In this document: positions 7,617 through 38,047 of the stretch, in pieces
How positions within the stretch are numbered: position 1 is the first letter of the stretch
How the letters are laid out: each line of letters begins with the position of its first letter
Source of the DNA: a virus
Lineage: Duplodnaviria > Caudoviricetes
Direction: 5' to 3' (one strand)
Virus record (IMG/VR): IMGVR_UViG_3300037565_000164
Location: 1-58,941 of that record
Length of the DNA: 58,941 bases
Notes under the pieces: model-generated
The model's database searches: none
Seen by the model: the letters and a program-made list of their open reading frames with translations, nothing else
Told to the model about the DNA's origin: nothing
Program-made: the position numbers and the translations under genes

Positions 7617-7688
7617 GATTGCTGTCCTTGTTCGGAACAGCACGTCATGCGCTGCAGCACTCATACCGCGATTTTAGGAAACGGGGAA
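7617..7688 (-). promoter_or_regulatory. Late leader 1 (lysis operon): promoter plus GCGCATGACGTGC motif (7640-7652)
   Basis: TTCCCC-17-TATGAG, then the motif; the motif region pairs with GGACAGCA and UCAUGC, covering RBS and AUG. Confidence 0.8.
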
Positions 7689-7705
7689 GCCCGCCCCCGG
7701 TTCCT

Positions 7706-10700
7706 TCAGTAAAGGTGCTCCGGCATCAATTCGCGCAGATAGTGATTGAGCTCCGGATCTGGGATCAGCACGCCATCCTGACGCTTGGCCGCATTGCGCG
7801 CCCGCGACTTGAGCGACTGGGTCAGCGAGTCGCCGGTGATCGGCACCATGCGGGCATATGGCTTGCGGTTCCACGCCTTGATGGCCTCGATCGCGGCGCG
7901 GCGCGCATCGGGATCACCCAGGGCCACGGCCAGCGCAAACTGGTTCATCAGGGCGCGCCGTTCGTCGAGCACTTTCTGCTCGGCGTCCTTGAGCGCACCC
8001 ATGCGTTCATAGGTTTCCGCCACCTTGGCCGGGGTGAACCCGATCGCCTCGATGAGCACATCCAGCGCGTTGACCTGACTGCGATCGAGCGTCACGTCGC
8101 CGCGGCGCGTCAACACACCCTCGCTCGCATAGCGATAGGCCTGCATCAGATCCTTGAGCGCCTTGGGCAACACCATTTCGGCACCACGCACCACGTTGCC
8201 CGACATCGCCAGGCCGACGCCGTCGACAACGTTGAGCATGGTCGAAGGCACAACGCCCATGGCGCCGACGATCAGCTCCTGGAACCAGTCGCGGCCCTCC
8301 GCGCCGCCGTCCGGCGCCCGCACGAAGAAGTCAGGCATGCCAAGCCGGGTGGTCAGGTCGATGCCGGTCAGGTGGCCCGGCGCCCCGTTGAGCACGATAC
8401 CGCCCAGATCCTTGCCCAGCAGGTCGATGATATGTCCCTCAAATTCATCCTTGAAACCGCGCGGGTCATCGTCGTCATCGAAGGCCAGGCCGAGAATGGC
8501 CATCAGCACATTGTAGCCGAAGAACCCCGATGCGCCGGCAAACAGACCCGTCATGCCCATAACGCCGGCCAGTTGGTACCGAGCCTCCTTGCGGGCCTGC
8601 GCCGTCTCGCCCTTGAACGATTGGTGGATGTCGCGGAACAGCCGATACCACATATTGAGCTGGTGGCTTTGGAAGGTCAGCACAACCTTGGCGAAATCGC
8701 CCTGCATCAGCCGCGCCCGCGACGCGTTGGAATAGTCGAAGTGGCTCATCCAGGTCAGCTCATGGGCGATATCCACGGCCTTTGTCTGGTGGTGCCCCTG
8801 CTCCCGCGCCAGGCGGTAGGCCGCCAGCGCCGTGACTTCGCGGTTCCACACCTCAACATTGTGGTACGCCCACGAAATCACCGACATCACCTTCTGCCGA
8901 ACCGGCGAGTAGGCAACGCCCACCTCGCCGACCCCGGCCAGGTCATGGGCCTGCGTGCGATCGATCATGCCGCTCGAATAGAACTGGGTCATTGCCCACT
9001 GTTCATCCTCGGTCAGCTTGGCGTTGACGGCGCTGCCCTTGCCGCGCATCACGTCGGCACTGGCCCGGCCGATCGCAGCCGCCGCCTTGTGCAGACCGCC
9101 CAGCCGCGCGCCGAGAATTGGCATGGCCATCATTGGGGTCTGCGCCATGTTGATCAGCGCCGCCGCCGGCGATGCGGCCAGATACCAGACGAACATCGAC
9201 GAGGTGACCGCCTGCACGGCCCGCGAGCCGGTCGGGTTCATCACCCAATCATGCCGCTTTTTGAGCTCGTTGGCCAATTGCATGCCCCGCACCGGGTCAT
9301 CAGCCTTCTTGGCCTGATCCACCGCTTGGTTGGTCAGCTCGGACAGCTCCAGACCATATTTGAGCCGCGCCATCTGGTGGGCGGCGTGGAACTGGTTACT
9401 GGCAAAGGTGCGCAGCGCATCGCCATCGAAGCCCGCCACGCCCTTGCGGTGGATGAAGCGCTTGCGGGCGCTCAGATCCGGCATGGTTTCGAGGTAGCGC
9501 TGCCAGATCATGTCCATGACGCGTGGATCGACGCTGGCGTCGCCGAGCAGCGTTTCGATTTCAGCGACGATGCGCGGGTCCATCATGTCGCGCGCCGAGG
9601 ACTTATCGGCCATCAATCCGCTTTCCACCTGGTGGTTCGGATAGGCGCCCTTCATGTCACGCTCGAGCTTGCGGCGCTCGGTATCGCTTTCCCGGCGGGA
9701 GAAGCTGAGCACATTGCCCTCGATGTCGCGCACCGTGACGAAATACTGACCAAAGCGGGCCAGCGGGAAATAGGGCGCGGGCACCTTGCTGGCCTCGAAG
9801 GCCATGCGCAACTTGGTCATGCGCGCCTTCATGTTGTACGTCGCCTTGCCCATCTCCTGCGAATAGGTGCGCTGCGCTTCGGCCTCGGCGCGGCTCTTGT
9901 CGAGCTTGGACATTTTCGACCGGGCGATTTCATCCAGCCGCTCCCGATATTTATCCTCGGCGCGGCGGAACGCGATTTCCTGCGTCTTTCGCACATTGTC
10001 GAGCAGGATCATGTCGAGCTCGTCGGCCTGATCGCGATAGGTGTTGCGCACCTTGCGGTAGAGCTCCTGACCGGACCGGGGCAGCGCGAGATACCGCGCC
10101 CGCAGCGCGTCATAGCCCGGCTTGCTGCTGGTTTCCTCGTCGGTCAATGACGGATCAATGCCAGCCAGGGTGGTTTCGTGCATCAGGTCGGCCAGCGCTG
10201 CAGCACGGGCGCGGCCGGTCTTGTCCGCACCAGCCAGCCCAAGCCGGGCGTATTTGCGCCAGTCCTGGGCCACCGCATCAACCTCGGCATGCTTGCCGCC
10301 GCGATAGGCGTCCATCTGCCGCTTGACCTTCATGTACTGGTCCACGGCGACCATGCCGGGCCGCTTGAGCTCGGTGAAATAGTTGAGCGGCACTGCCGCC
10401 AGCGCGGCGGGCTTGAGGTCGGTAAGCTTGCCCGCAACCGCATCGATGATGCTCTGCTTGTCGATCTTGGCGGCCGCCGCAGTGGTGCGGGCCGCGATCG
10501 ACCGGCGCCGCGATGCCATGGCCGGACGCGGGCCACCATCGGGCGCTGCCGCCGACAATGCGGCTTTGGCAATGGCCTTGAGCTGAGCCGGTGTCACCGC
10601 GCCCAACTGGCGGCCAAAGCGGCGCAGCGCCCAGGCCTTGATCGCGCCCAACAGATCATCAACCCATTTGGACAGTGCGGCCGGCGCCGAGGCCTGTTCC

Positions 10701-19700: not shown

Positions 19701-21649
19701 GTCCGCGCCATCCGGTTGAAGGCGGTCCGCTCCCGGCCGTAGTCAAAGAGGCGCGCTGATACCTCATCAGGGAATTTCAGCGTGGTTGGCTCGCCCACCT
19801 CGTTCTGCAAGTCTCGAAGAAGCGGTCGCGTCTCCGGCGACGGCTCTGCGGGTGGCGGCGGCGGATTGTCCGCACGCTCCAGCGCTTCGACCTCGCGGCG
19901 CGACAGGTTGAGCGACGAGACGGCCGAGAGCGGCACCTGCAGCACTTCGCCATTGTCGTCGACAACCAGCGCCTCGCGCGACCCATCCTCATGGGTGATG
20001 TACTGCTCGACAGTGGCGTTGAACGGTTCCAGATCCGGGGCCGCCACCATGACGCGACTACCGGCGTCGGGCAAACCGCCGGCGCCCTGCGGCGTCACGG
20101 TCAGCGGGGCGGTTGTGGCCTGCGGGTCGGGCACCATCGGCGCGCCCTGCTCCGATTGCAACAGCCGCTTGCCCAGCACGCGCTCAGTACCGTCTTCGAG
20201 CACGACGCGCGCCATACCCGGATCGATGCCGCGCTGGTCCGGTGCCATCGTGACGAGCTGGCCATGCGCGGCGCCCGCCCCCATGCCCGGCAATGCCGGA
20301 TCGTTGACGATGTACCGCGCCCCCGCGCTCGGGTCGGTCGGCGCATTGGCGAGGCCGGTTTCGACGGCGCGCGACAAAGGGCCCTTGGGTGTGGGTTGCG
20401 GCGCCGGCATATCGGGCGTCGCCGGTCCTGTACCAGGAACGGGCGCGCTCATATCGGCGTTCGGCACCGGCATATCGGACGGCGGCGCCATTTCTTCGCG
20501 CTGGGACAAAGCCCCGGCCGCTGCGCCGGGAACGCTGCCGCCCAGCGCCCCCAGCAGGAAGTCGGCAAAGGTGCCGTCGGTCAGCGAGAGGTCCGTTCCG
20601 GCCCCGAGATTGGTGCCCATGGTCGAAGCGGCCGACTCGGCGGCCTCCTGGGCACCCTCTTCCAGACCGGACAGCCCAGCGCGGCCGGCAATGCGGGTGA
20701 CGATGTTGCGTCCGGCCAGCACGGCGGTGGCGGGGTCGATGATCTTGCCGGTGGCGAAACCACCAAGCGCGGAAATCGGGGCCGTCAGGGCAAAGGCGGC
20801 CTGTGCCGCAGCGGCCTTGGTTGCGGCCAGCGCTTCTTCATGGCTGCGCCCGGCGGCGATCTGCTCGCGGTAATAAGCCGATTCGCGCTCCAGCACGCCC
20901 GGCTCGGCCGCCATCTGGTCGATCAGCGCTTCCGCCTGCTGCGCGCCAGCGCCACCACCCTGCAATCCACCCACTACGGCGCCACCCGCTGGGCCCGCAA
21001 TGATCGAGGCGGCAATCACCGGTGTCATCTGGCCGAACACGTCCAGCGCCAGCGCGGCATAACCGACGGCGCTCGGATCTTCGCCCAGCGTCCATGTGCT
21101 GGGGTCCAGCAGGTCACCACCTGGTGTCGAATTGGCAATGGCCTCGCGGGTCGCAAAGCTCATACCCTCCTGGGTCTTTTCACCCAGCGTGTTGATCCAT
21201 TCCGCCGGGGCGCCCAGCGGATTGGCCTGGCCATACTCCGTGCCGAATATCTGGTTGATCAGCGGCGTGGTGGTGGCGTTGGTCAACCCGGTGATGGCAT
21301 TGCCAAGACCACCGACCACGGCGCCACTGCCTTTTGCGAGCGCGCCGCCCATCAGGCGGGCCGTATCTTCCAGCCAACCCGGCTGGCGGGCCTGCCAATC
21401 ACTTTGCCACTGCCCCAGCGCGCTTTCGTCGATCAGCTCATAGCGATCGGGTTCGGCCTCGCTTAGCGTTCCGAACTGCGCCTCCGTCGCCGCATTGGTC
21501 TGCTGGACCCGGGCGATTTCCGCGTTGCGCTGCTCTTCCTCCGGGGAGAGTTGCGGCGCGGCCGGGGCCTCGAACGGGTTCTGGCGATTGCGGTAGAGGC
21601 CGAAGGGGTCCGATGCCTTGAACGAGCCGGACTTCATGACGATGGGCAT
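7706..21649 (-). CDS. Giant DarB-like polyvalent virion protein (pyrophosphatase-like, N6-adenine MTase, SNF2-type helicase and PLxRFG domains)
   Basis: GNYKLGH..SIENPAG..HYGYI..GKDKDHIDVF (about 18530-18935); VLEPSMGIGNF and IGNWPF (about 15300-16310); AHEVGTGKT, DEVH, QRNGRGMRQGN; YFPLARFG (about 9750-9770). Confidence 0.9.
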   Translation of the reverse strand: MPIVMKSGSFKASDPFGLYRNRQNPFEAPAAPQLSPEEEQRNAEIARVQQTNAATEAQFGTLSEAEPDRYELIDESALGQWQSDWQARQPGWLEDTARLMGGALAKGSGAVVGGLGNAITGLTNATTTPLINQIFGTEYGQANPLGAPAEWINTLGEKTQEGMSFATREAIANSTPGGDLLDPSTWTLGEDPSAVGYAALALDVFGQMTPVIAASIIAGPAGGAVVGGLQGGGAGAQQAEALIDQMAAEPGVLERESAYYREQIAAGRSHEEALAATKAAAAQAAFALTAPISALGGFATGKIIDPATAVLAGRNIVTRIAGRAGLSGLEEGAQEAAESAASTMGTNLGAGTDLSLTDGTFADFLLGALGGSVPGAAAGALSQREEMAPPSDMPVPNADMSAPVPGTGPATPDMPAPQPTPKGPLSRAVETGLANAPTDPSAGARYIVNDPALPGMGAGAAHGQLVTMAPDQRGIDPGMARVVLEDGTERVLGKRLLQSEQGAPMVPDPQATTAPLTVTPQGAGGLPDAGSRVMVAAPDLEPFNATVEQYITHEDGSREALVVDDNGEVLQVPLSAVSSLNLSRREVEALERADNPPPPPAEPSPETRPLLRDLQNEVGEPTTLKFPDEVSARLFDYGRERTAFNRMARTMGESALDIQATTFKPDVAKALAAELGISPEGLAEVADDYRYRVERAARKGTAEAVSKMHAVNPEVLARWRTTETAASETEAETLAPDGDADAAWWDGLQPGARKALLAAAKVKRSEKSTWDKFSKQIKAKLAPLRAEMEGLDKARARSQALDSGLPDPEPDDSQADYTRWREGQESQLSALENGTDPLTADDEANIRRIASNLASETNFPDEADFVADRAVERARANRAALDDAADEAATSPANDRPEPSEAQKEAGNYKLGHHRIGGLDLSIENPAGSERKGQDKTGKPWSVTMKSHYGYIRGTVGKDKDHIDVFVKPGTEALDDTAMVTVVNQVNEAGQFDEHKVMLGFKSQSEAEAAYMENYTKGWKGLGSVGIATLGSFKSWLKDGDTTKPFSPNTVAPEASSEKTRRELTGTDQAAKPFAREELYRDVANMLRRNRALDPISALVAVDAKGSEILDAFDKHVGQHMAGSGGDRTSFQARGRKLEVLMPSADGKEPVRKTFQGGDLVTLLRNAVEAVHTAKAPEAGAVGSRGQSSTDSSAPDAALWDDPSYDTDREAAKAFKAGDRVEYTNGNFDPPRVFTGRVKKKQFRGFKPMGLLEVEVDGARDGGTHDVTIAASQLRAAPKERTSAPPAKAQEPDEAAVAPAEPEGKPTPDPFAKNKLFTADKVAAAKARLKSKMGQLNSGIDPEVLVDGMTIAGAYIEAGVRDFSDYAAQMTADFGDRIKPYLLSFWEGARNYPGLDTEGMTPTDEATRLHKALVTELPREEAAALGQELAPPKKRAKKTGRAGDRTLIQDFGVDSIDGWSYDGEGQETDFGVKGGVKDNFLRDATAYLNAVAGVLKEQGYAPSDDARGRPSKPVSKSESGPATSGDVSMTVWNPDTGIRIYAHITGSALRGMVPSTQSGVSIMFRVGLDTDRYATRATNQWAPVDLAAADLAALMGRAADRLAARGDKPLSADEKQRVITELKAEIARPALEPVENGNDPGTVQPELESQSGNRVGPDAGGAALRPQPDAARADSERLADRQPSDVEAPAAGGRGRPAGSSGATADVGGAGQSDLFGDAGDGRARAGRAQPSDAGAGERTGGTGTDLVTVKSPESVSPANQGPGNFHIDDPLAIVGGGQVARFEKNKAAIELANTLREEGRQATREEQTILAGYTGWGSFGQDLFQGTWSTPRPKAGWEARDAWLRDNLGQADWEGLQRSITNAHYTDPPTVLAMWDMVERMGFTGGRVLEPSMGIGNFFGMMPRALKDRSTLTGIELDPTTGAMAQLLYPDANISVMGYQDSKTPDNFYDLVIGNWPFEDTVIADRRYNRLSPFLHDYFYLKALDQVRPGGLVMGITSKGTLDKKDSGIRSELAKKAELVAAFRLPSGAFQDYAGTNVVTDIIVLRKRAEALGNSAGTGWIKSVPYMTPQGEEVSVNEYYLANPSHVVGQIEFGSGTTFRRPGLIVTRPDDMMAQMKRITALVPEEAYQADSRAGKQISYITNHTDDREGALVKSDKGLFIVRGEHLAPAADVAKYEVKDAKVTASRVAQLEALIDMRKAYAALIAAERNADDNPEPARKALKAQYDGFVAAHGTLSDSYGLGYLSKIDDPFYPALAALEVRDGKGVRQATILSQSTVRAARKIDKPTVSDAFVLARNSAINPSLEQIAEIAQKPAAEVKAELIEKGAVFELPGGDIVPADIYLSGNVREKMRQALAARDAGDANMQRNIDALAKVMPADVPYYAIEVQMGASWVPTRTYADYVAHMLNGDSAGVQVHYTAGRWRISIDNALKSRPEASAGFGTPVYSFQKLVNAAISNQTVTIRKEDHEGNVFVDEQATSEANEKIANIRSSFGEWLWSDLDRRVALEAEYNEVRNAYASPSFDGSFLSFEGMALSLGKGPFDLREHQANAIWRGLVMRRSLNAHEVGTGKTFTMGGLAVESRRYGIARKPLIFAHNANSASVAAEIQQMYPASKVLYIDNLAPAQIDVKMRQIANDDWDAVVVPHSLISRFALTEETLMALAAEEIAAIEAEAYAAAEDDGAKLTDAMLDDDEQLKKLRSPTAKDLVKMRNRIIETIKKQGQRASKDGAVSFEDLGVDMVLVDEVHEFKKPPFSTRMRIKGLNTQSSDRSIALSFLLRYIRGQQNGGNVHLFTGTPVTNTLTEVFHAMRYIMAEEMGEVGVDQWDGWFGSFAREVQDVELNAAAEYEAVNRLAGFINVPELRRMIGQYMDVVFADDMPEMQPRRTKSGKVLSDASLTEKERAELLNGRTEDAKDRPYKKVIVETADLTPAQQDAFAKIQGYAQRWRKMTGKEKREVMQQGGPESPIVTEGLAAKASFDVRLMDGEALAGQEGRADDEPNSKASRVVRNVLEIYRSHKQATQVIFTNAGISTTGTRSVGEVGAKTQQRFKVFSTVGDIVERLVQDGIPRDQIAVVDGSTSKEKRKEVADAMNRAEIRVVIGSTQSLGVGVNMQRNLRAMHHMDAPWMPGDLEQRNGRGMRQGNQWNTVLEYRYLTDRIDGRRWQVLAIKQRFINAFLKADDTTRVIEGDAASDEESDILTTFAEAAGDPRVLIREKLRKKIDQLNKKRRLHDTGIVDARRSAEKLDKWVEERRADQRRLAPVAEKVAELSKTMTGDGFAMTIEGQRFDKRSDARDALEELIENGKGVGPGMDPRHVGVFGGHPLEVRWARLSDTPRLTLVIDGEAIAGNLGTIASLEARLRNYSAELTDMGPQIADAERSSARLRAQAQEPFHQAKDLDRAENELIALEKDLAENPVPPPAWLRSGAPIDTEVQWNGSNHIVSGHRWNSEGWFVLASGDEGVIEMPYAEVRDAQGMALYEEREFAAPEVVEKAETPEGRKHSVGRSGRQSIEAVRAALRRGGMGNLAEALEAAGRLTIIETSDAGEGVQAWTDPDGSITLVADQIGDDPVAVLLHEAFHSGAHDLLGGKEWGSLMLRLAGLYRQFEQSKGKARDFFDAARARVSQAEAVAGALGEGLRVEEFAAYAIEEQASAPAALSKWVDDLLGAIKAWALRRFGRQLGAVTPAQLKAIAKAALSAAAPDGGPRPAMASRRRSIAARTTAAAAKIDKQSIIDAVAGKLTDLKPAALAAVPLNYFTELKRPGMVAVDQYMKVKRQMDAYRGGKHAEVDAVAQDWRKYARLGLAGADKTGRARAAALADLMHETTLAGIDPSLTDEETSSKPGYDALRARYLALPRSGQELYRKVRNTYRDQADELDMILLDNVRKTQEIAFRRAEDKYRERLDEIARSKMSKLDKSRAEAEAQRTYSQEMGKATYNMKARMTKLRMAFEASKVPAPYFPLARFGQYFVTVRDIEGNVLSFSRRESDTERRKLERDMKGAYPNHQVESGLMADKSSARDMMDPRIVAEIETLLGDASVDPRVMDMIWQRYLETMPDLSARKRFIHRKGVAGFDGDALRTFASNQFHAAHQMARLKYGLELSELTNQAVDQAKKADDPVRGMQLANELKKRHDWVMNPTGSRAVQAVTSSMFVWYLAASPAAALINMAQTPMMAMPILGARLGGLHKAAAAIGRASADVMRGKGSAVNAKLTEDEQWAMTQFYSSGMIDRTQAHDLAGVGEVGVAYSPVRQKVMSVISWAYHNVEVWNREVTALAAYRLAREQGHHQTKAVDIAHELTWMSHFDYSNASRARLMQGDFAKVVLTFQSHQLNMWYRLFRDIHQSFKGETAQARKEARYQLAGVMGMTGLFAGASGFFGYNVLMAILGLAFDDDDDPRGFKDEFEGHIIDLLGKDLGGIVLNGAPGHLTGIDLTTRLGMPDFFVRAPDGGAEGRDWFQELIVGAMGVVPSTMLNVVDGVGLAMSGNVVRGAEMVLPKALKDLMQAYRYASEGVLTRRGDVTLDRSQVNALDVLIEAIGFTPAKVAETYERMGALKDAEQKVLDERRALMNQFALAVALGDPDARRAAIEAIKAWNRKPYARMVPITGDSLTQSLKSRARNAAKRQDGVLIPDPELNHYLRELMPEHLY
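16408..16737 (-). CDS. Putative overprinted 109-aa protein nested in another frame of the giant gene
   Basis: GGAGA RBS before the ATG; helical, protein-like sequence, while the host frame here is a low-complexity linker. Confidence 0.55.
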   Translation of the reverse strand: MTQAPFSQSWKASLETEWAQMQAAPHFVHNQTLHERILNAWRTDSPQMWKRLRQAGAGGLLARVVQQRMWAERDSLISSGMPATDAREQAERNHLMLEPESELAEPVLT

Positions 21650-21737
21650 GCTGACGTGCTTTCCCACTTGAGTGGCAGGACAAGCAGCACGTCATGCGCC
21701 GCGGCAAACTTATACGACGGGTTCCGTCGGCCGACTA
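21650..21737 (-). promoter_or_regulatory. Late leader 2 (giant gene): promoter plus motif (21687-21699)
   Basis: TAGTCG-17-TATAAG; UGACGUGCU pairs perfectly with AGCACGUCA, 2 nt before the AUG. Confidence 0.8.
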
Positions 21738-23042: not shown

Positions 23043-24476
23043 CTAGGCGGCTGCGAAGCCGAGCCCGATCGGGGCTTCGGCACGACGAGGCGGCTTTCCA
23101 GCCGGACGCGACGCGGGAGGAGGTGGCGTGCGCCCGGCTGGAGCCCGGCGGCGGCCCGAAGCCCCCAAACCCACCGCCGATTCGATACTGTCGACTTTGA
23201 CCGCCAAGTCCTTGACGGCCTTCATGGTGAGGCCGATGGCGTCGCCGACCGGGATCGTCTTGCCATCCCCCTGCCCCGTCTCGGCCTGGAAGTCCTCGGC
23301 ATAGGTGCCAATGTGCTCGGCCGCGCCGTCGTCGCCATAGCCTTCCTTGTAGCGCCAGCTTTCGACGGGCAGTTCCTTGACCGCCTCAAGGGCTTCGCCC
23401 TCTGGGATTTCGGCCTTGTCTTCCTTGACCTCTTCACTGCTGAGCAGCAGACCGGCGCCGGTGCCCAGCGCCCCCATGAAGCCATTGAGATTGGCGTCAC
23501 TGCGGTTCTGGGCGTCGGCGTAGATCCCGTACTGGCTGTTGAACAGATTGTTGAGCGTGTTGGCGCCGCTGGCATTGCCCGATGTCGCCCCGGCAAAGCC
23601 TTGCCCAACAATACCGGTCGAACCGAGAAAGGCGTTGTTGGCGTTGAGCGCACCGGTCAGCCCCGTCCCCAGCGCGGCGGCCTCGCCGCCGGCGGCGGCC
23701 CCCATATTGGAGATAGCATTATTGCCCGCGCCAATGGCCATGCCGGCACCGGCATTGGACGCATTGAGCGCCGAGTTCTGGGTATTGGTGGCGCCTGCAG
23801 CCGTGTTGAGGGCCTGGGCGGACACACCCCGCCCTAGATTGGCAATATCGGCCTTGAGCGACAGCCCCTTGTCACGCACAGCGGTTCGGGCCGCATTGGC
23901 GGCGCCAGCAGTGGCCAGGCTCTCGCCCAAGTCACCGGCGCGACTGATCCCGCCCCAGCGCCCGGAATTGGGGTTGATACCCAGGCTCGCGGCTTCACGC
24001 TGCGCGGCAGATCGAGACGCGGCGCCCGCGGTGCGCACGTCGGCCATGGCGGCCGCTGCGGCCTCGGCCTGCCGTTCGGGCGAGCCATACGTGCTGGCCT
24101 CTTCGATGAACTGATCTTCGACTGGGCGATAGACGCTTTCATAGCGCTCTCGATCGGCACGCGCGATGCCGTCCTGCCAGTCGGCGGAATCGAGCTGCTT
24201 TTGTGCCACCTGTCGGCCCAGACCAAGCTGCTCCTCGGCGATCGCCAGAGATTTGTCTGTCTGGGCACGGGTATAGGCGCTGTTGTCCTCGGCCAGCTTG
24301 AGGGTTTTTTCGGCGACCGACTTCGTCAGCGCGTCGATTTCCGCTTGCCGATCCTTGGAGATGGCAAACTGATCCTTGGAAAACTGCAGCCATTCCTCGC
24401 CCAGCGCGATCTGGCGGTTGGCTGCATCACCGATGGCGGAACTGGGAGTTGGCGCGGCGCCGGGGCCTTTGGACAT
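23043..24476 (-). CDS. DNA-injection/pilot-like protein with a C-terminal peptidase S74-like (intramolecular chaperone) domain
   Basis: MSKG..AP start, Ala/Gly/Asn-rich body, SSEEVKED..LPVESWRYK..HIGTYAEDF. Confidence 0.7.
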   Translation of the reverse strand: MSKGPGAAPTPSSAIGDAANRQIALGEEWLQFSKDQFAISKDRQAEIDALTKSVAEKTLKLAEDNSAYTRAQTDKSLAIAEEQLGLGRQVAQKQLDSADWQDGIARADRERYESVYRPVEDQFIEEASTYGSPERQAEAAAAAMADVRTAGAASRSAAQREAASLGINPNSGRWGGISRAGDLGESLATAGAANAARTAVRDKGLSLKADIANLGRGVSAQALNTAAGATNTQNSALNASNAGAGMAIGAGNNAISNMGAAAGGEAAALGTGLTGALNANNAFLGSTGIVGQGFAGATSGNASGANTLNNLFNSQYGIYADAQNRSDANLNGFMGALGTGAGLLLSSEEVKEDKAEIPEGEALEAVKELPVESWRYKEGYGDDGAAEHIGTYAEDFQAETGQGDGKTIPVGDAIGLTMKAVKDLAVKVDSIESAVGLGASGRRRAPAGRTPPPPASRPAGKPPRRAEAPIGLGFAAA

Positions 24477-24554
24477 GGAGCTCTCCAGAAGTGAGAGCCG
24501 CACGTCATGCGCAGCTAGTCGAAACCTTATACAGCGAGCAGGCGGTCTTGGCGA
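24477..24554 (-). promoter_or_regulatory. Late leader 3 (ejection genes): promoter plus motif (24500-24512)
   Basis: TCGCCA-17-TATAAG; GACGUG pairs with CAUGUC and GCUCUC pairs with GAGAGC. Confidence 0.8.
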
Positions 24555-26984: not shown

Positions 26985-26990
26985 GATGCC

Positions 26991-28304: not shown

Positions 28305-28306
28305 GG

Positions 28307-29646: not shown

Positions 29647-29651
29647 GCGGT

Positions 29652-30287: not shown

Positions 30288-30310
30288 TTCGGCCGCTCCT
30301 TGCTGGTTTC

Positions 30311-30352
30311 AAAAAAGCAAACGGGACACTGGGCTTAGGCCAGCGTCCCGTT
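30311..30352 (-). terminator. Rho-independent terminator
   Basis: AACGGGACGCTGG/CCAGTGTCCCGTT stem followed by TGCTTTTTT. Confidence 0.75.
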
Positions 30353-30391
30353 CACACTTGCTACGCGGGCCCCAAAGTGTTGCCGCGATCC

Positions 30392-30850: not shown

Positions 30851-30876
30851 GTCATTCTCCGAGTGACGGGGTTGCG

Positions 30877-30905
30877 AAAACCCGGCGCCCGGTCAGGGCG
30901 TCGGG
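30877..30905 (-). terminator. Hairpin plus TTTT after the major capsid gene
   Basis: CCCGACGCCC-TGACC-GGGCGCCGGG-TTTT. Confidence 0.55.
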
Positions 30906-30916
30906 CTGGGCGTCAG

Positions 30917-32017
30917 TTAGCCGTTGGGATCGGCGGCGGCCGTGTCGAGAGAGAGCACGCCGAAGTCGCGGTCTTTGAAGCGGGACTTCTTCACGCCGAC
31001 GATGATGCCGCCGATGACCTGCTTTTCGTTGCCGTGGTCGGCCTCGTCCTCACTCCACTGGAAGCGCATGCCGCCCTCGGCGCCGTAGGCGATAGCGCCA
31101 GCCTGGCGTCCGAGGAACAGGGCGCGACCGGCTTCGACATTGCTGCCGGAGCCATAGTCGGAGAAGCGAACGCCGCTCGAATGCTTGTGCAGCACGACAT
31201 TCTTGATCATGCCCAGACCACCCTTGAAGATCGGGTTGTTCCGGCCTTCAGCCGATGCGGCCGCCTTCTGGATATCGATCCAGCCGGTTGTGTCGGCCGT
31301 GCGCAGGTCATGCTCCTGGAACGGGTTCATGACGCAGACATAGTGCGGCTCGCCATTGATATCGATCGGCATCATGTTTGCCTGCTCGGGATCAGTGGCG
31401 GCCAGCATGCCTGCCTTGACCTCGGCCTTTTCGATCAGCGATTTGCTCATCTTGTCGTTGGCATCGAGGTCGCCCTTTGACGTCGCGTCGCCGCCATAGA
31501 GCAGGTGCCCGGCGTCGGGGGCCTCGATTGGATTCTCGGCGTGGCCGGCCCAGGTGGGTGGGGTGATAAAGCCAGCATTGCTGCCGCGTGCGCCGGAGAG
31601 ATAGATGAAGATCATCTCGTCCATGAACTTGGCCCAGTATTCCGACAGGCGGTTGCGGGCCACGGTGCGCAGATTGTGGATGGTGCGCTTCTGGGTCATC
31701 TTGCCACCGGCGCTGACGCCGTGGCGCATCTGGTCGATGCTGATCTGATCCGAGAAGAACTTGAGCTTTTCTTCCTTGCCCTCAAGCCGGTTGTCGCCGG
31801 TCGTGGGCATGCCGCGCAGTTGCACAGACAGGTCGATCTGGATGGTGTCGCCCTTGGCGGCTTCCAGATCGGTCAGGCGCTGAATGGGCGCGTTGTCATC
31901 GTTCTGGATGAACTTCTTCACCCAGTATGACTTGTCATTGGTCTGCAGGAAAAGCGAGCCCGACCACTTCTTGACTGCGCGGGGATCGCCAAACGGAATG
32001 GTCGTGGGACCGGCCAT
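30917..32017 (-). CDS. Major capsid protein, N4-gp56/DUF4043 family
   Basis: AVKKWS, GDTI..DL..QL, LEGKEE.L, IDQMRHGV, NPIFKGGLG, LFLGRQAG, DFGVLSLDT. Confidence 0.9.
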   Translation of the reverse strand: MAGPTTIPFGDPRAVKKWSGSLFLQTNDKSYWVKKFIQNDDNAPIQRLTDLEAAKGDTIQIDLSVQLRGMPTTGDNRLEGKEEKLKFFSDQISIDQMRHGVSAGGKMTQKRTIHNLRTVARNRLSEYWAKFMDEMIFIYLSGARGSNAGFITPPTWAGHAENPIEAPDAGHLLYGGDATSKGDLDANDKMSKSLIEKAEVKAGMLAATDPEQANMMPIDINGEPHYVCVMNPFQEHDLRTADTTGWIDIQKAAASAEGRNNPIFKGGLGMIKNVVLHKHSSGVRFSDYGSGSNVEAGRALFLGRQAGAIAYGAEGGMRFQWSEDEADHGNEKQVIGGIIVGVKKSRFKDRDFGVLSLDTAAADPNG

Positions 32018-32096
32018 GACATGCTCCTAGAAAGGGTTTGAGCACGTCATGCGCTGTGGTGTTGTTACGCATACTGCAATTCGCGGCGCCTGGCAA
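32018..32096 (-). promoter_or_regulatory. Late leader 4 (capsid operon): promoter plus motif (32042-32054)
   Basis: TTGCCA-17-TATGCG; AUGACGUGCUC pairs with GAGCAUGUCAU (11 bp, one G-U), covering RBS and AUG. Confidence 0.85.
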
Positions 32097-32170
32097 TGTG
32101 TGTGGTAAAGCGCCGGTTTACTTGTGCGAGATGTCTGTCAAGTCGAGCACTTATCGCGCCCGCGCCGGTA

Positions 32171-34328: not shown

Positions 34329-34329
34329 C

Positions 34330-34638
34330 TTAGGCCGCCGTCCATTCGAACTTGTCGCCAGGCTCGACCAGTACGTCAACCACGGTCAGCGCCGGCACGA
34401 ACAGGCGCGGGCTTGCACCCGCGTCCGGGTTTCCGCCGATCGAGATGTAAGCGTCCACGGCCGAGTAGATCTCGAACACGGCGCTGGCATCGGTCAAGGT
34501 GGGGGCGGCATTGCTGCTGACACTGCCGTCGGCAGGGGCCTCGGACCATTGAGGCTTGCCCAGCACCGGCAGATGGCGCCGGTTTTCCGGGGGAGCGGCA
34601 ATCTTGCAGCAGGTGACATGAAGACCAGAAAAAGCCAT
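34330..34638 (-). CDS. Small virion protein, possible spike base
   Basis: 102 aa, beta-rich, GGAG RBS, directly upstream of the spike-like gene. Confidence 0.55.
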   Translation of the reverse strand: MAFSGLHVTCCKIAAPPENRRHLPVLGKPQWSEAPADGSVSSNAAPTLTDASAVFEIYSAVDAYISIGGNPDAGASPRLFVPALTVVDVLVEPGDKFEWTAA

Positions 34639-34712
34639 GACGAATTCTCCTTGCAGGCGAGCACGTCATGCGCTGATGCACTCTTGATACGCGAATTCGT
34701 GCCGTGTGCCAA
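34639..34712 (-). promoter_or_regulatory. Late leader 5 (spike genes): promoter plus motif (34661-34673)
   Basis: TTGGCA-17-TATCAA; CAUGACG pairs perfectly with CGUCAUG, which contains the AUG. Confidence 0.8.
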
Positions 34713-34718
34713 CGGGCT

Positions 34719-36977
34719 TCAGCCGGACAGCGAGCGCGGCGGGCCGTCCTCGTCGCCATAGGTGTGGCGCACCTTGCCATTCATGGCCGTGGTTGGCATG
34801 CGATGGCCGCTGCTGTTCTGATACCAGCGCTCTCCGCGATTGATGGCGGCCAGCGCATGCGCATTGTGGTTGGACGGGCTGGCGTTCGCTGCACGAATGG
34901 ACGCCTGATCGAGCGGCTTGCGCAGCGACGCCGAGCCGCTGAGCCCTGTCCCGCCGCCGAGACCGATCATGTTGCGCAACCCCTCGACGATGCCCGGCCC
35001 AAACCCCTCTTCGGGAATGCCCAGCGCTCCACGGATGCCGCCCAGAAGTCCTTCCCCGATTCCTTCTTCGGGCAGGCCAATGGCCGTGCGGATATCTCCG
35101 GCCAGGCCATGATCGCTACGCTCGGGTGTGGGTTTTGGAGCGGGCTGGGTACGCAGCCACTCGGGGTTCAGCTCGACCACCGTGCGGGTGCGCAACGTCG
35201 GCCCCATGGTCTCGGCTGTCTTTGCGCCGGCGGCACGCTGCCCCTTGTTGTCGCGGCTCACCGAATAGGTCATCTCGCCAAGCGGAATGGCGTCGCGCTT
35301 GTTAGCGGCGGGCTTCCCACCCTCCTGCCCCGCATAGGTCTGCGGGATCTCGATTGTCTCGGTGCGCGTGATGTACTTCGGTACCTCGGCCGGAGATGTT
35401 GCGGCCGCCGCGCCAGGGGCCGCCGGTGTTGGTGCTGCACCAGTGCGTGGCCGGGTGCCAATATTGGGTGGCGGCGCTGTTGGCGCGATCTGTTCCGGGC
35501 GCGGCCGGGCGCCGACACCTGCAGCCGTCGCCGGTGGTGGCGCTGCGGGGCTAGCGCGCTCCTGGCCAGCATAACTCTGCTGCGCCATGGCGAGCTGGGT
35601 GCGTGACGGACTTGGGGCAGGATCTGGGCGGCTTGGCGCGGGCTCCCGCGCCGGCGGCGACGTCGGCCCGCGCTCCTGGCCGGCAAAGGACTGGGGAGGT
35701 GCCGCCCGCGACACCGGCCTTGGGGCCATGATCTTGGCCGGCCCGGTTTCCCGTCCGGCGAAGCTTTGGGGCTGACGTTCGAGCGTCGCGCGACGCTGCG
35801 CAGTTTCGGCTTGTCGGGTCAGGGTAGTCGCTGCCTCCGGCGTGACGTTGCGCGGCATCGGCACCTGACCCGCTACGGGCTCGGCGGTCCGCTGCACGCC
35901 AGGGCGCCGAGCGACTGGGCCGCGCTCCTGGCCCGCGAAACCGCCATCGCTCGGCACTGGCCGCTGTGGCTGGCGCATGGCGGTGGCGGGAATCGGGTCT
36001 GGCGCCGTCTCGATCGCTGCATCCGGGGTCAGAGAGCCCAGTCCCCGCGTCACGGAAGTGCGCACCAGATCCTCGTCGGGGATATGCCGATACCGGACAT
36101 TGCCATCTGCATCGAGCTGCGGCGTGTGGGCGTTCGGCCGGGTCGCCGCCACTTCCTCTGGGCGCAGCGTCGGCTGCCGCGAAAACCCGAGCCCGATGAC
36201 GTCGGCCATTTCCGGCATCGTGCCGACATCATCCTGCGCGATGATACCGGTCGGCCCAATGGTTGGGAGACTGCGGGCGGGGGCTTGCTCGGTTGGTGCC
36301 TCAGGCCGCTCCGACGCAGGCGTCGGCATGCTCACTTGCTGCGGCGGGCGCTGGTCGCGCGGCGTGGGCATCGTGGGCTCGATGCGAGCCGGGGGCGCCA
36401 CGTCCATTTCCGTCGCGACGATGTTGGGCACCTCTCCTGGCGGAAGCTTCACACCATCGGCAGTGTAAAAGTCACCCGCGAGTTGCGCTTCTACCGGGGT
36501 ATAGCCGTCGGTGGTGCCGTGGTAGTGGATAGACTGCCCGGAGCCGTATCGAGGTCCATCCAGCGCGTCGATCCACTGCCGATTCTTCGCGTCGCTATAA
36601 AGCGGGTTGGCGTAGTGCAAATTGCCGCCGACCGAGCTCGGGGCGCCACCAATACGGCTGTTGACCCAATCATTGACGGCCGAGCGAGCGACGTCCGGCA
36701 CAATGCCATCAGGTACGCGTTCGACGGAGCCCCAGACTTCATAGCCCCGATCGCGCGGACCGTTAATGGCCGAAAACTGCCGGTCCTGATTGGCGACACC
36801 AGCTATGGTGTCAGGAAACTGGGGCGAAGCAACTCGGTTGAGGACGGTGTCGACAATACCTGCGACCTGGCGCTGATACATGTCTGGATCGCGCTGCGCG
36901 AGTCGGTGATCGGCCTCGGTTGCGACGATGCGCTCAAGGTAGATGCGATCCTGCAGAGAGATGTTGATGGGCGCCAT
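34719..36977 (-). CDS. Cell-wall hydrolase (SleB/Hydrolase_2-like N-terminal domain) with a long Pro/Ala-rich tail
   Basis: RIVATEA..VDTVLNRVASPQFPDTIAGV..QFS..HYANP. Confidence 0.8.
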   Translation of the reverse strand: MAPINISLQDRIYLERIVATEADHRLAQRDPDMYQRQVAGIVDTVLNRVASPQFPDTIAGVANQDRQFSAINGPRDRGYEVWGSVERVPDGIVPDVARSAVNDWVNSRIGGAPSSVGGNLHYANPLYSDAKNRQWIDALDGPRYGSGQSIHYHGTTDGYTPVEAQLAGDFYTADGVKLPPGEVPNIVATEMDVAPPARIEPTMPTPRDQRPPQQVSMPTPASERPEAPTEQAPARSLPTIGPTGIIAQDDVGTMPEMADVIGLGFSRQPTLRPEEVAATRPNAHTPQLDADGNVRYRHIPDEDLVRTSVTRGLGSLTPDAAIETAPDPIPATAMRQPQRPVPSDGGFAGQERGPVARRPGVQRTAEPVAGQVPMPRNVTPEAATTLTRQAETAQRRATLERQPQSFAGRETGPAKIMAPRPVSRAAPPQSFAGQERGPTSPPAREPAPSRPDPAPSPSRTQLAMAQQSYAGQERASPAAPPPATAAGVGARPRPEQIAPTAPPPNIGTRPRTGAAPTPAAPGAAAATSPAEVPKYITRTETIEIPQTYAGQEGGKPAANKRDAIPLGEMTYSVSRDNKGQRAAGAKTAETMGPTLRTRTVVELNPEWLRTQPAPKPTPERSDHGLAGDIRTAIGLPEEGIGEGLLGGIRGALGIPEEGFGPGIVEGLRNMIGLGGGTGLSGSASLRKPLDQASIRAANASPSNHNAHALAAINRGERWYQNSSGHRMPTTAMNGKVRHTYGDEDGPPRSLSG

Positions 36978-37053
36978 GCCAGTCCCCTGATGGAGTACCA
37001 GCACGTCATGCGCCTGCGACGCGAACCATAGTCCATCCTGGACGGATTGGCGA
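36978..37053 (-). promoter_or_regulatory. Late leader 6 (hydrolase): promoter plus motif (37001-37013)
   Basis: TCGCCA-17-TATGGT; GUGCUGGU-A-CUCC pairs with GGGG-ACUGGCAU, covering RBS and AUG. Confidence 0.8.
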
Positions 37054-37082
37054 TACGCAGGTCTGCTGCTATGGTCGCGGGC

Positions 37083-37391
37083 ATGAAAGCTGCAGTGACG
37101 ACGTTTATAGCCACGATTTTGCTTCTAGTTCCCGCCACTGCGGCCGAGTGCGTCTGGCAGGCGGAAGATGGTCAGGTGCTTGCTGTTTCCGACCCGGCGA
37201 CAATTTCGATAACGGATCGGGGCGAAACGCAGTTTTGTTCTCTGCGAGGTGCAGGCACCGGCGTTTCCGTTCGGGTCGGATCTTGTGGCGATCTGGAGTG
37301 GCCCTACTTCACTGTGCCATCAGTTCCTGGGGGTCTCGACGACATTCTGATCTTCCAGAACACAGCCTGGTATCGCTGGTGCGCCGACTGA
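37083..37391 (+). CDS. Small secreted protein (moron-like)
   Basis: Signal peptide ending ATA-A; four Cys; opposite strand to the late genes. Confidence 0.65.
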   Translation: MKAAVTTFIATILLLVPATAAECVWQAEDGQVLAVSDPATISITDRGETQFCSLRGAGTGVSVRVGSCGDLEWPYFTVPSVPGGLDDILIFQNTAWYRWCAD

Positions 37392-37397
37392 GCGTCC

Positions 37398-37604
37398 TCA
37401 GCGCCAGATCAGGTGGCGCATAAGGCCCGCACCAAGCCCTCCGGCGGCAACTGCCAGGCCGAGTGTGGCTTCTGGCCAGAACAGCGCGCCGACAATAGCG
37501 CCGACACCAGCGCCCATGCCGACCGCCATGCCATAGCCGACGAACATGAACCAGCTTTCGCTGACCGCTTCGACGCGGGCATTACTGATGGGCAAGTGTC
37601 TCAT
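37398..37604 (-). CDS. Small membrane protein (2 TM, Gly-rich)
   Basis: GAGG RBS; hydrophobic Gly-zipper-like segments. Confidence 0.55.
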   Translation of the reverse strand: MRHLPISNARVEAVSESWFMFVGYGMAVGMGAGVGAIVGALFWPEATLGLAVAAGGLGAGLMRHLIWR

Positions 37605-37816
37605 GGCGGCAACCTCAAGAACAGACTGCCGCATCAACGCATGGGCGGGGCCCTGACGTCAATCCCGGCGCGGCTGGGCACTTTGCTTGGTCAGCGTGAC
37701 AACGGCCACACGCGGCGCCCCCTTGTCCCGATCGACCCGCAACGCCTCACGAACCAGCGGCAGGCGCTGAAACGCCCGCCGCCATAAGCCGGTGGTGTCG
37801 GCCATCTGCTCCATGC

Positions 37817-38038
37817 CTATTCGGCCGGTTCGGGGTCCGGCACCGAAACATGGCGGCTTTCGCCGGTCAGGCCGGTGGCATAGCGCTCCGGCATGACGCC
37901 GGTTTCATTCATCTTGATCGGCGAGATGGCCGTCGCGATGACCAGGCGAACGCGCTGCCCGCTTTTCTCTTTGACCTTGATCGACACCTGGTCGCCGATT
38001 TCCAGAATGTCCCCAACCTTGACGTCGCGCGTGATCAT
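37817..38038 (-). CDS. Divergent CsrA/RsmA-fold RNA-binding protein
   Basis: MITRDVKVGDILEIGDQVSIKVKEKSGQRVRLVIA aligns without gaps to CsrA [35 protein letters not shown]. Confidence 0.75.
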   Translation of the reverse strand: MITRDVKVGDILEIGDQVSIKVKEKSGQRVRLVIATAISPIKMNETGVMPERYATGLTGESRHVSVPDPEPAE

Positions 38039-38047
38039 CGGGTGCCC

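What the first reader, a model, noticed from the sequence alone, without database searches (positions are those of the whole stretch)
7617..38038. Candidate phage-encoded CsrA-like translational switch controlling six late transcription units
Seen in the sequence: the exact 13-mer GCGCATGACGTGC occurs six times (7640, 21687, 24500, 32042, 34661, 37001). Every copy is intergenic and on the coding (-) strand. Five lie 22-24 nt before the AUG and one 37 nt before. The downstream genes are the holin, the giant protein, the pilot protein, the major capsid, the spike base and the cell-wall hydrolase. In every leader the motif can pair with the translation-initiation region. The phage also encodes a 73-aa CsrA/RsmA-fold protein just after the scaffold gene. 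Established: CsrA binds A(N)GGA in hairpin loops of 5' leaders, and alphaproteobacterial chromosomes generally lack it. Inference: the phage protein binds the GCGC-AUGAC-GUGC hairpin (ANGA rather than ANGGA), opens the inhibitory stem and turns on virion and lysis translation. I recognised no Q-like antiterminator or late sigma factor in the window, so this could be the late-gene activator. Phage csrA-like genes have been annotated before; the cognate activating regulon is what may be undescribed.
Basis: partly seen in the sequence, partly recalled or inferred. Interest (0 to 1): 0.95.

Follow-up and report, generated by a model that had tools for sequence, protein, structure and literature searches.

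The report
Phage CsrA-like protein and leader box
Six virion and lysis messages of this prophage begin with the same 13-base RNA box, which can fold on itself or cover the start codon, and it is probably read by a small CsrA-like protein that the phage encodes.

Summary
GCGCATGACGTGC occurs six times, always intergenic and on the coding strand, 22-24 nt (once 37 nt) before an ATG. Each copy lies 7-13 nt after a host-type -35/-10 pair.

The box is an RNA element. It forms a 4-bp hairpin with a G-U pair and an AUGAC loop. In the predicted folds it also pairs with the start-codon region.

Related Bcep22-like phages keep the box. Variant boxes (AUGAU, AUGA, AAGAC, AGGAU, AGGA) carry matching changes in the partner near the start codon.

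The 73-aa ORF at 37817-38038 is a divergent CsrA relative (profile against RsmE, E 2.6e-7). It lacks the Arg44 equivalent. All 26 records I examined with a box also encode a CsrA-like gene. Phages with GGA-loop boxes keep the Arg.

Protein-box binding and the direction of control are inferred, not shown. Pairing with the start region exceeds chance in only about half of this window's six leaders.

I found no paper describing this regulon. This scan has noted the same system before on other DNA.

Verdict: a real feature, a new variant of CsrA-type control, and an untested mechanism.

The parts
37817..38038 (-). 73-aa CsrA-like gene. It is the last gene of the terminase-portal-scaffold block and no box precedes it.
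   Evidence: Translation. Pfam CsrA E 0.0028, 18 bits against a cut-off of 27. phrog_8397 'CsrA-like regulator', E 5.7e-6. A family profile of 40 sequences hits RsmE 2jpp at 2.6e-7, and 9 of 12 PDB hits are CsrA. The AlphaFold2 model has pLDDT 84 and five strands at CsrA's positions.
36975..37053 (-). Leader unit of the 752-aa hydrolase-domain virion protein: -35 at 37053-37048, -10 at 37030-37025, box at 37013-37001, ATG at 36977.
   Evidence: Fold -25.7 kcal/mol, z -3.45.
34636..34712 (-). Leader unit of the 102-aa ORF and the two genes after it: -35 at 34712-34707, -10 at 34689-34684, box at 34673-34661, ATG at 34638.
   Evidence: Fold -17.3 kcal/mol, z -1.86.
32015..32096 (-). Leader unit of the major capsid gene: -35 at 32096-32091, -10 at 32073-32068, box at 32054-32042, ATG at 32017.
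   Evidence: Fold -21.3 kcal/mol, z -3.32. Box-to-start-region duplex -18.0 kcal/mol, within the lowest 0.8% of genome background.
24474..24554 (-). Leader unit of the 477-aa virion structural protein (Peptidase_S74 domain): -35 at 24554-24549, -10 at 24531-24526, box at 24512-24500, ATG at 24476.
   Evidence: Fold -21.7 kcal/mol, z -2.75. The duplex test alone is not significant.
21647..21737 (-). Leader unit of the giant protein gene: -35 at 21737-21732, -10 at 21714-21709, box at 21699-21687, ATG at 21649.
   Evidence: Fold -24.9 kcal/mol, z -1.35. Duplex -16.1 kcal/mol, within the lowest 2.8% of background.
7614..7688 (-). Leader unit of the holin-lysozyme cassette: -35 at 7688-7683, -10 at 7665-7660, box at 7652-7640, ATG at 7616.
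   Evidence: Fold -21.5 kcal/mol, z -3.83.

Best explanation
The 13-mer is the 5'-proximal element of six late mRNA leaders.

Seen in the sequence:
- The box can form a small hairpin, GCGC-AUGAC-GUGC, with a 4-bp stem that includes a G-U pair.
- Alternatively it can pair with the start-codon region. An inner stem then covers the Shine-Dalgarno sequence (SD), and the initiation region is closed.

Inferred from co-occurrence and co-variation: the phage's CsrA-like protein is made from the upstream packaging/portal/scaffold block and recognises the hairpin form.

Inferred from geometry and from the CsrA-ymdA precedent: binding holds the box in the hairpin, frees the AUG and raises translation of the virion and lysis genes. 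These genes sit behind host-type promoters.

The direction of control (on rather than off) is the least certain step.
For: 1. The box is real and conserved. There are 6 exact copies here. The same 13-mer stands before the orthologous late genes of POI1126: 4 exact copies in the 45 kb read, plus 1 variant. It occurs 4-5 times per genome, all on one strand, in G001, G006, G009 and G023. It occurs in PEp14, Itty13 and Mwe-JY07. A 12-mer form occurs in Atu_ph08 and PBC5.

2. It acts as RNA.
- The distance from the -10 varies: 7-13 nt here and up to 21 nt in G002, L127 and L128.
- The stem needs a G-U pair.
- Orientation always follows the gene.
- Exact copies in the two host genomes that carry a box-bearing prophage sit in the prophage contigs.

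3. Alternative pairing is conserved by compensatory change.
- AUGAU boxes go with CAUCAUG partners.
- The AUGA 12-mer goes with CACUCAUG.
- AAGAC goes with CUUG.
- AGGAU goes with GCACAUCC.
- AGGA goes with GCACUCC.
- For 9 leaders chosen as one or two per box type, cognate box-to-start-region duplexes average -15.7 against -11.0 kcal/mol for non-cognate ones. Only 1 of 20000 permutations reaches that value, and the cognate box is the best partner in 7 of 9 columns.
- 38 of 67 leaders beat shuffles at p<=0.05. These leaders are related, so they are not independent.

4. There is a link to the protein.
- All 26 records examined with a box also encode a CsrA-like ORF. It usually lies between the scaffold and capsid genes, directly before a box-bearing leader.
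- 3 of 3 outgroup phages without CsrA join scaffold to capsid with a 21-24 nt gap and have 0-1 hits to the relaxed pattern.
- GGA-loop boxes read CAGGAUG or CAGGACG, the CsrB repeat (passage in PMC7652899).
- The Arg at CsrA position 44 is present in 7 of 7 phages with GGA boxes and in 0 of 12 alpha-type proteins with UGA boxes.
- The AUGA-tetraloop box goes with a distinct protein subtype in 3 of 3 cases.

5. Direction.
- Opening the start region costs 7-19 kcal/mol in the free leader.
- Blocking the box lowers that cost by 3-10 kcal/mol in 4 of 6 leaders.
- It lowers the cost for the AUG alone from 5-7 to 0-2 kcal/mol in the same 4.
- CsrA activates ymdA by opening an SD-sequestering hairpin (passage in PMC7652899).
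Against: - There are no binding, expression or reporter data.
- The window's own protein scores below Pfam's cut-off: 18 against 27 bits.
- It lacks the Arg44 equivalent and the N-terminal MLxL.
- It has no long C-terminal helix in the model.
- Fold searches with the monomer model did not return CsrA.
- Co-occurrence is confounded by shared descent, because every close relative has both parts.
- The Arg/loop correlation is clean only between two clades. PEp14 keeps Arg-Arg with an AUGAC box. Itty13, Skulduggery and G002 each carry two loop types with one protein.
- Box-to-start-region complementarity is at chance level for 2-4 of this window's six leaders, depending on the test.
- With the box blocked, the inner SD hairpins still cost 6-12 kcal/mol to open.
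- The JC1 study (passages read, PMC9144972) treats the gene as a moron and found one peptide of it in virions, so another role is possible.
Confidence: 0.5

Rival explanations
1. The CsrA-like protein reads the box but represses. One face of the dimer holds the box hairpin and the other holds the GGA of the SD 10-25 nt downstream, as CsrA does on glgC or hag. This would limit or balance synthesis of the capsid, virion and lysis proteins, possibly relieved by an assembly partner as in the FliW-CsrA-flagellin loop.
For: Repression is the default mode of the family, and two-site bridging is known (passages in PMC7652899). All six SD regions here contain GGA. In phage E220 one GGA box is itself the SD, 7 nt before an ATG, which is the classical repressor geometry. 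The family has its own conserved C-terminal motif (G47, G56) that could take a protein partner. The gene sits in the head-assembly block.
Against: The free leaders already fold shut, so a repressor would add little. The box is the strand that covers the AUG, so holding it in a hairpin should open the start rather than close it. GGA in an SD is common and says little on its own.
Confidence: 0.17
2. The box works without the phage protein. It would be a cis-acting leader structure read by a conserved host component, or by none: a 5' stabiliser, an RNase III or RNase E processing site, or a built-in brake on translation. The CsrA-like gene would then have an unrelated role, such as host manipulation or a virion-associated function.
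For: The folds are stable and conserved on their own. Published work treats the gene as a moron or as a way to act on the host (passages in PMC9144972 and PMC8450108). No binding is shown.
Against: A purely structural element would not keep 13 letters unchanged across phages with very different base composition and hosts. The GGA versions match CsrA sites letter for letter. Host chromosomes do not use the box. Outgroups without the gene lack the box. Loop type tracks the protein's beta-5 residues.
Confidence: 0.23
3. The 13-mer is a DNA operator for a phage or host transcription factor that sits just downstream of six promoters.
For: It lies at about +1 to +25 of predicted sigma-70-type promoters, a common place for repressors.
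Against: The distance to the -10 varies from 7 to 21 nt. The motif is asymmetric and always in the sense orientation. Its stem needs G-U. Its partner near the ATG lies at a variable distance (about 14-45 nt) and changes in step with it, which fits RNA pairing and not a protein dimer on DNA.
Confidence: 0.04

Closest known systems
CsrA/RsmA/RsmE with their hairpin sites (RsmE-hcnA, PDB 2jpp; CsrB repeats CAGGA(U/A/C)G)
   Same: Both are small proteins of about 60-75 aa with five beta strands. Homology is detectable at profile level. The target is a short hairpin with a 4-bp stem and the motif in the loop, placed in an mRNA leader near the SD. Relatives of this phage carry exact CAGGAUG or CAGGACG loops.
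   Different: Here the loop reads AUGAC, that is UGA instead of GGA. The protein lacks Arg44 and the C-terminal helix and has its own GxxPxxFxxGxxG tail. The targets are the phage's own late genes, not host genes. No antagonist sRNA is seen.
CsrA activation of ymdA translation in E. coli (also moaA, and RsmA with phz2); passages read in review PMC7652899
   Same: The leader folds so that the initiation region is sequestered. The regulator's site lies within or next to the sequestering helix, so binding should open it.
   Different: That is a single host gene with GGA sites. Here one invariant box serves six operons, the occluded element is mainly the AUG, and nothing has been tested.
Com activation of mom translation in phage Mu
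   Same: A small phage protein binds a leader and opens a structure that hides the start site of a late gene.
   Different: Com is a zinc-finger protein acting on one gene. There is no homology and no repeated box.
'CsrA-like regulator' genes annotated in Bcep22-like phages (DC1 gp46, Bcep22 gp54, Parlo gp62, Itty13 gp22, LASTA, PEp14, Skulduggery)
   Same: The gene sits in the same position, after the scaffold gene and before or near the capsid gene. It belongs to the same PHROG.
   Different: The papers I could read describe these genes as morons or possible host manipulators and name no target. The window's protein belongs to a more divergent alphaproteobacterial-phage branch.

Membership tests
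CsrA/RsmA family (PF02599) | Significant sequence homology to the family | tested here: met
   A profile of 40 family representatives hits RsmE 2jpp at E 2.6e-7, and 9 of 12 PDB hits are CsrA. 29 of 40 members match Pfam CsrA at E<=0.01. P0001 matches phrog_8397 'CsrA-like regulator' at 5.7e-6.
CsrA/RsmA family (PF02599) | The protein itself reaches Pfam's curated cut-off of 27 bits | tested here: not met
   18 bits, E 0.0028, covering residues 6-35 only.
CsrA/RsmA family (PF02599) | Five beta strands followed by a C-terminal alpha helix | tested here: inconclusive
   The AlphaFold2 monomer (pLDDT 84) has strands at 2-6, 11-14, 18-21, 30-34 and 41-44, as in CsrA, but only a 3-residue helical turn after them. 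Foldseek and VIA-align did not list CsrA, which is an intertwined dimer.
CsrA/RsmA family (PF02599) | Intertwined homodimer with two RNA-binding faces | not testable with these tools
   A monomer model cannot show it. See Tried and rejected for the one attempt.
CsrA/RsmA family (PF02599) | RNA-contact residues Leu4 and Arg44 (passage in PMC7652899) | tested here: not met
   In the alignment to RsmE the Arg44 column is Pro in the family consensus. P0001 reads PIKMNE there and starts MITRD instead of MLxL. Relatives with GGA boxes keep the Arg in 7 of 7 cases.
CsrA/RsmA family (PF02599) | Target is GGA in the loop of a short hairpin | tested here: not met
   The hairpin architecture is kept, but the loop here is AUGAC. 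GGA loops occur in DC1, Bcep22, G003, G004, G005, Skulduggery and E220. Binding itself was not testable.
CsrA-activated leaders (ymdA type) | The leader folds to sequester the initiation region, and the regulator's site lies in or next to that helix | tested here: met
   In all six minimum-energy folds the AUG pairs with part of the box. Blocking the box lowers the opening cost in 4 of 6 leaders.
CsrA-activated leaders (ymdA type) | The regulator raises translation (reporters, toeprints) | not testable with these tools
Rfam families | Match of a leader to a curated RNA family | tested here: not met
   A scan of the whole window at E<=1 gave one unrelated weak hit and none at the leaders.

The most novel reading that the evidence does not exclude
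In this phage group the late switch is translational. All virion and lysis operons would be transcribed from ordinary host-type promoters but kept shut by a start-site-covering leader. A CsrA-derived protein with a changed specificity (a UGA pentaloop instead of GGA, without Arg44) would be the single key that opens them all. Such a pair would also be a natural RNA-protein pair orthogonal to host CsrA.
Probability: 0.27. Interest if true: 0.85.

Novelty: new variant of a known kind. Interest (0 to 1): 0.68.

Why it matters
Phage csrA-like genes have been read as morons that act on the host. If they instead govern the phage's own capsid, tail and lysis messages through a dedicated leader box, three things would follow:
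- It would explain why the gene sits in the head module of a large podophage group that infects alpha-, beta- and gammaproteobacteria.
- It would add a translational layer to late-gene timing.
- It would provide a family of small RNA-protein pairs with graded specificities (GGA, AGA, UGA) for studying how CsrA-type recognition evolves and for use as orthogonal switches.

The idea is directly testable in cultured phages.

Tried and rejected
- Sigma-54 or another promoter reading of the reverse strand: rejected by orientation.
- Leader peptide from the AUG inside the box: the frames are not consistent between copies (read).
- Dyad DNA operator: rejected by the variable spacing.
- Rfam: no match.
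- Foldseek 'pdb' and VIA-align 'pdb_via_wide' with the monomer model: no CsrA listed. Best hits were TRAP and others at Z 2-2.5, which is inconclusive for an intertwined dimer.
- Complex prediction with two copies of the protein: no verdict, score 0.31 against a mark of 0.42. I draw nothing from it.
- The look-up of sequencing runs, RNA: none was listed.
- The search for homologous proteins found only the query itself. The HMMER library search gave the family.
- The search for related loci with P0001 in genome contigs: none. With P0010 in viral contigs: none.
- Composite pattern scans pick up chance and coding hits. In IMG/VR there were 48 stretches against 4 for a reversed-partner control. 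About 20 short contigs plus G015 and G018 are one lineage in which the match lies inside a coding frame. G033 shares no proteins with the window. In genome contigs only 35 of 121 matches look like leaders.
- Five loci with weak matches to P0001 (L129-L131, L133, L134) had no exact 13-mer and were not examined for variant boxes.
- G007 and G013 carry boxes but are fragments that lack the scaffold-capsid interval, so they say nothing about the gene.
- In one search the automatic start choice was wrong for at least G007_831 and G005_42267. I left those rows in the counts.
- Supplementary tables of PMC7366521, which list the csrA+ phages, could not be seen.
- Gill et al. 2011 on Bcep22 is not held. 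It may discuss the gene or repeated leader sequences.
Full report
**The observation**

The exact 13-mer GCGCATGACGTGC occurs six times in the window, at the stated coordinates and always on the - strand. Dinucleotide-preserving shuffles give 0.01 copies on average. The window is a whole provirus record of 58,941 bases, and there are no further copies in it. A relaxed pattern adds only two hits, both inside the giant gene, which is chance level.

All six copies are intergenic. They lie 23, 22, 24, 23, 37 and 23 nt before an ATG.

The genes behind them are:
- a holin followed by a lysozyme;
- the 4653-aa giant ORF;
- a 477-aa virion structural protein with a Peptidase_S74 domain;
- the major capsid protein;
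- a 102-aa ORF without any family match;
- a 752-aa protein with a cell-wall hydrolase domain.

**Anatomy**

Upstream of every copy there is a sigma-70-like pair with an exact 17-nt spacer: a -35 such as TTGCCA, TTGGCA or TCGCCA, and a -10 of the form TATnnn. The box starts 7 to 13 nt after the -10 hexamer. It should therefore lie at the very front of the transcript. This is a prediction, and no 5' ends were mapped.

The box can fold into a four-pair hairpin: G-C, C-G, G-U and C-G around an AUGAC loop. The G-U pair exists only on the sense RNA.

In the minimum-energy folds of all six leaders, part of the box instead pairs with the start codon region, and an inner stem pairs the SD with an upstream anti-SD stretch. 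The energies run from -17.3 to -25.7 kcal/mol. The z-scores against dinucleotide shuffles are -3.45, -1.86, -3.32, -2.75, -1.35 and -3.83, and 4 of 6 are matched by at most 2 of 200 shuffles.

A stricter test asks only how well the 13-mer pairs with positions -25 to +10 of the start. By that test, 3 of 6 leaders beat shuffles at p<=0.05. Only the capsid leader (0.8%) and the giant-gene leader (2.8%) stand out against all 36-nt windows of this G+C-rich genome. The other four lie at 16%, 18%, 41% and 87%. The start-site pairing is therefore clear for some leaders and not more than chance for others, when this window is taken alone.

**Relatives settle that the box is functional RNA**

The window is a Bcep22-like podophage. 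It has a P22-type portal, a giant protein, and a capsid 68% identical to Agrobacterium phage Atu_ph08, 66% to Sinorhizobium phage PBC5 and 63% to Ochrobactrum phage POI1126.

The identical 13-mer is widely kept:
- POI1126 carries it before its capsid, gp21, giant and endolysin genes, and a one-letter variant before gp26.
- The uncultured genomes G001, G006, G009 and G023 have five copies each, all on one strand. The fragment G011 has four.
- Erwinia phage PEp14, Pseudomonas phage Itty13 and the record named Microcystis phage Mwe-JY07 also carry it.

The proteins of these phages are only about 40-60% identical to the window's, and some genomes are A+T-rich. The distance from the -10 rises to about 20 nt in G002, L127 and L128, which argues against a DNA site tied to the polymerase.

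Where the box differs, the partner near the start differs in step:

| Box variant | Partner | Where seen |
|---|---|---|
| AUGAU | CAUCAUG or CACAUCAUG | POI1126, G001, G006 |
| AUGA (12-mer GCGCAUGAGUGC) | CACUCAUG | Atu_ph08 and PBC5 capsid leaders |
| AAGAC | GCACGU(U)CUUG | LASTA |
| AGGAU | GCACAUCC | Bcep22 |
| AGGA | GCACUCC | G005 |
| UGGAU | GCAUAUCUG | Skulduggery |

I chose nine leaders, one or two per box type out of the 67 collected, and compared each box with each start region.
- Cognate pairs average -15.7 kcal/mol and non-cognate pairs -11.0.
- Only 1 of 20,000 random assignments does as well.
- The cognate box is the best partner in 7 of 9 columns.

Over all 67 leaders, 38 beat shuffles at p<=0.05 and 25 at p<=0.01. 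These leaders are related, so the counts overstate the number of independent events.

The local hairpin has little variation with which to test it. G004 has GGGGC-AGGAC-GUCCC, a compensated stem change with the G-U kept, and GP4 has a shifted version.

Across IMG/VR, the box followed within 14-44 nt by CGTCATG occurs in 48 stretches, against 4 for a reversed control partner. About 20 of the 48 are one lineage in which the match lies inside a coding frame.

**The protein**

The 73-aa ORF at 37817-38038 follows the scaffold gene at the end of a block that runs from a replication-initiator gene through the terminase and portal genes.

Taken alone it matches Pfam CsrA only weakly (18 bits, cut-off 27) and RsmE at E 0.015. 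An exhaustive HMMER search gave 41 cluster representatives.
- I aligned 40 sequences: the query and 39 short representatives. I left out the two long proteins P0002 and P0014.
- 29 of the 40 match Pfam CsrA at E<=0.01.
- Their profile hits RsmE at 2.6e-7, and 9 of 12 PDB hits are CsrA proteins.
- PHROGs files the protein under 'CsrA-like regulator'.
- The AlphaFold2 model (pLDDT 84) has five strands where CsrA has them and no long C-terminal helix.

In the alignment to RsmE the critical Arg44 column is Pro in the family consensus, and the family has its own conserved Gly-rich tail. The review PMC7652899 (passages read) names Leu4 and Arg44 as the critical RNA contacts.

The protein is therefore a divergent relative of CsrA, not a standard member.

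**The link between protein and box**

In every one of the 26 records where I looked at both, a CsrA-like ORF and at least one box-type leader are present. The 26 records are:
- the window;
- POI1126, Atu_ph08, PBC5, DC1, Bcep22, Parlo, Itty13, LASTA, PEp14, Skulduggery, GP4, Mwe-JY07 and E220;
- G001-G006, G009, G011 and G023;
- L127, L128 and L421.

This rests.

In most of these records the gene lies directly before the box-bearing capsid leader. Several GenBank records already annotate it as 'CsrA-like regulator'.

Three outgroup phages with a more distant capsid (29-35% identical) are Vibrio D182, Achromobacter CF418P1 and Escherichia SH2026Stx1. They have no CsrA match, join scaffold to capsid with a gap of 21-24 nt, and have 0, 1 and 1 hits to the relaxed pattern. 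I did not examine the context of those hits.

The fourth outgroup, the F116-like Pseudomonas phage E220, has a canonical CsrA gene and three copies of GCGCAGGAGTGC on its late strand. One of them follows an ORF that ends like a Bcep22-type CsrA-like protein. Another serves as the SD itself.

The boxes with GGA loops read CAGGAUG or CAGGACG, which is the repeat of CsrB quoted in the review. The window's CAUGACG differs from it by one letter.

The protein changes with the loop:
- An Arg stands at the CsrA-44 column in 7 of 7 phages with GGA boxes: DC1, Bcep22, G003, G004, G005, GP4 and Skulduggery.
- It stands there in 0 of 12 proteins of the alphaproteobacterial type with UGA boxes.
- In five other non-GGA phages the column is Lys (Parlo), Gly (Itty13), Arg or Cys depending on gap placement (LASTA), and Arg (PEp14 and Mwe-JY07).

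The correlation is therefore clean only between two clades. The AUGA-tetraloop box goes with a separate protein subtype in 3 of 3 cases: Atu_ph08, PBC5 and L421.

Host chromosomes do not use the box. In a Brucella pseudintermedia genome all four exact copies lie on the 59-kb plasmid prophage. In Mesorhizobium alhagi all six lie on three contigs, four of them on the 43-kb prophage contig, with none elsewhere in the 7-Mb assembly.

**Mechanism**

These points are shown by sequence and comparison:
- The box is a conserved RNA element of late leaders.
- It has two mutually exclusive pairings.
- It is associated with a CsrA-like gene.

That the protein binds the hairpin form is inferred.

The direction of control is a further inference.
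- In a thermodynamic model, opening positions -14 to +5 costs 7-19 kcal/mol in the free leader.
- Making the box unavailable lowers this by 3-10 kcal/mol in 4 of 6 leaders. For the AUG alone the cost drops from 5-7 to 0-2 kcal/mol.
- The 102-aa ORF leader and the giant-gene leader hardly change.
- The inner SD hairpins stay closed at 6-12 kcal/mol.

A leader that is already shut has little use for a repressor, and CsrA is known to activate ymdA by opening an SD-sequestering hairpin. I therefore prefer activation. Repression by bridging the box and the GGA of the SD remains a live rival.

The wider claim that this protein is the late switch rests only on two things: the promoters look host-type, and I found no late regulator among 20 further ORFs, most of which have no known function.

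In a sample of 201 genomes of the class that contains a Mesorhizobium host, 39 have a CsrA match over the cut-off and 162 do not. 'Generally lack it' is therefore roughly right, but it is not a rule.

**What is known**

The papers I could read do the following:
- JC1: passages.
- The Pseudomonas CsrA survey: passages.
- The Serratia Rsm/CRISPR study: passages.
- The POI1126 paper: passages.

They list or annotate phage csrA genes and suggest moron or host-directed roles. None names a target in the phage's own leaders. Four further full-text searches found no such report. Gill et al. 2011 is not held, and supplements were closed.

Notes of this scan describe the same system on other DNA. They agree with this reading but are not independent evidence.

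**Verdict**

It is a new variant of CsrA-type post-transcriptional control: a phage-owned protein-box pair with a non-GGA loop that has spread over six late operons. Binding and the direction of control are untested.

Noticed in passing
proteins P0002 (927 aa) and P0014 (2309 aa): Two long proteins match the 73-aa query in 8 and 5 separate stretches, which suggests tandem arrays of the CsrA-like domain. I left them out of the family alignment.
   Followed up: no
Pseudomonas phage vB_PaeP_E220, MF490237.1: 34365, 39849, 40303 (- strand) and 55340-55492: This F116-like phage has a canonical CsrA gene and three GCGCAGGAGTGC boxes on its late strand. One box is the SD of the next gene. Another follows an ORF ending ...KSGQVARLQISADEGTVIQNP, which looks like a second, Bcep22-type CsrA-like gene that the Pfam scan at E<=0.01 did not report.
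   Followed up: partly
Sinorhizobium phage PBC5, NC_003324.1: 961-972: A 12-mer box overlaps the annotated start of the integrase gene. The annotated ATG at 965 is the ATG inside the box.
   Followed up: no
window 47737-47845: A divergent control region lies between a repressor-like gene (47845-48162 +, phrog_8 and related families) and the long leftward block that ends with the CsrA-like gene. It holds an inverted repeat, GTTGTATC ... GATACAAC, that looks like an operator.
   Followed up: no
window 37047-37391 (+): An ORF on the opposite strand sits between the CsrA-like block and the hydrolase leader. Its start faces the promoter-like hexamers of that leader. It may be a moron.
   Followed up: no
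window 30317-30355 (-): This is the only strong terminator-like hairpin on the late strand within window 20000-39000, the only stretch scanned: 16 pairs followed by a T run. It lies downstream of the capsid gene and the next gene.
   Followed up: no
IMG/VR records G015 and G018 and about 20 short contigs: In an unrelated phage lineage with 67% G+C the 13-mer plus CGTCATG lies inside a conserved coding frame (...AHDVR...VMH...). This is a recurrent false positive for pattern scans of this box.
   Followed up: yes
G002: 28932 on the - strand: One genome carries two AUGAC boxes and also an AAGAC box before a gene on the other strand. One CsrA-like protein may therefore serve more than one loop type.
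   Followed up: no
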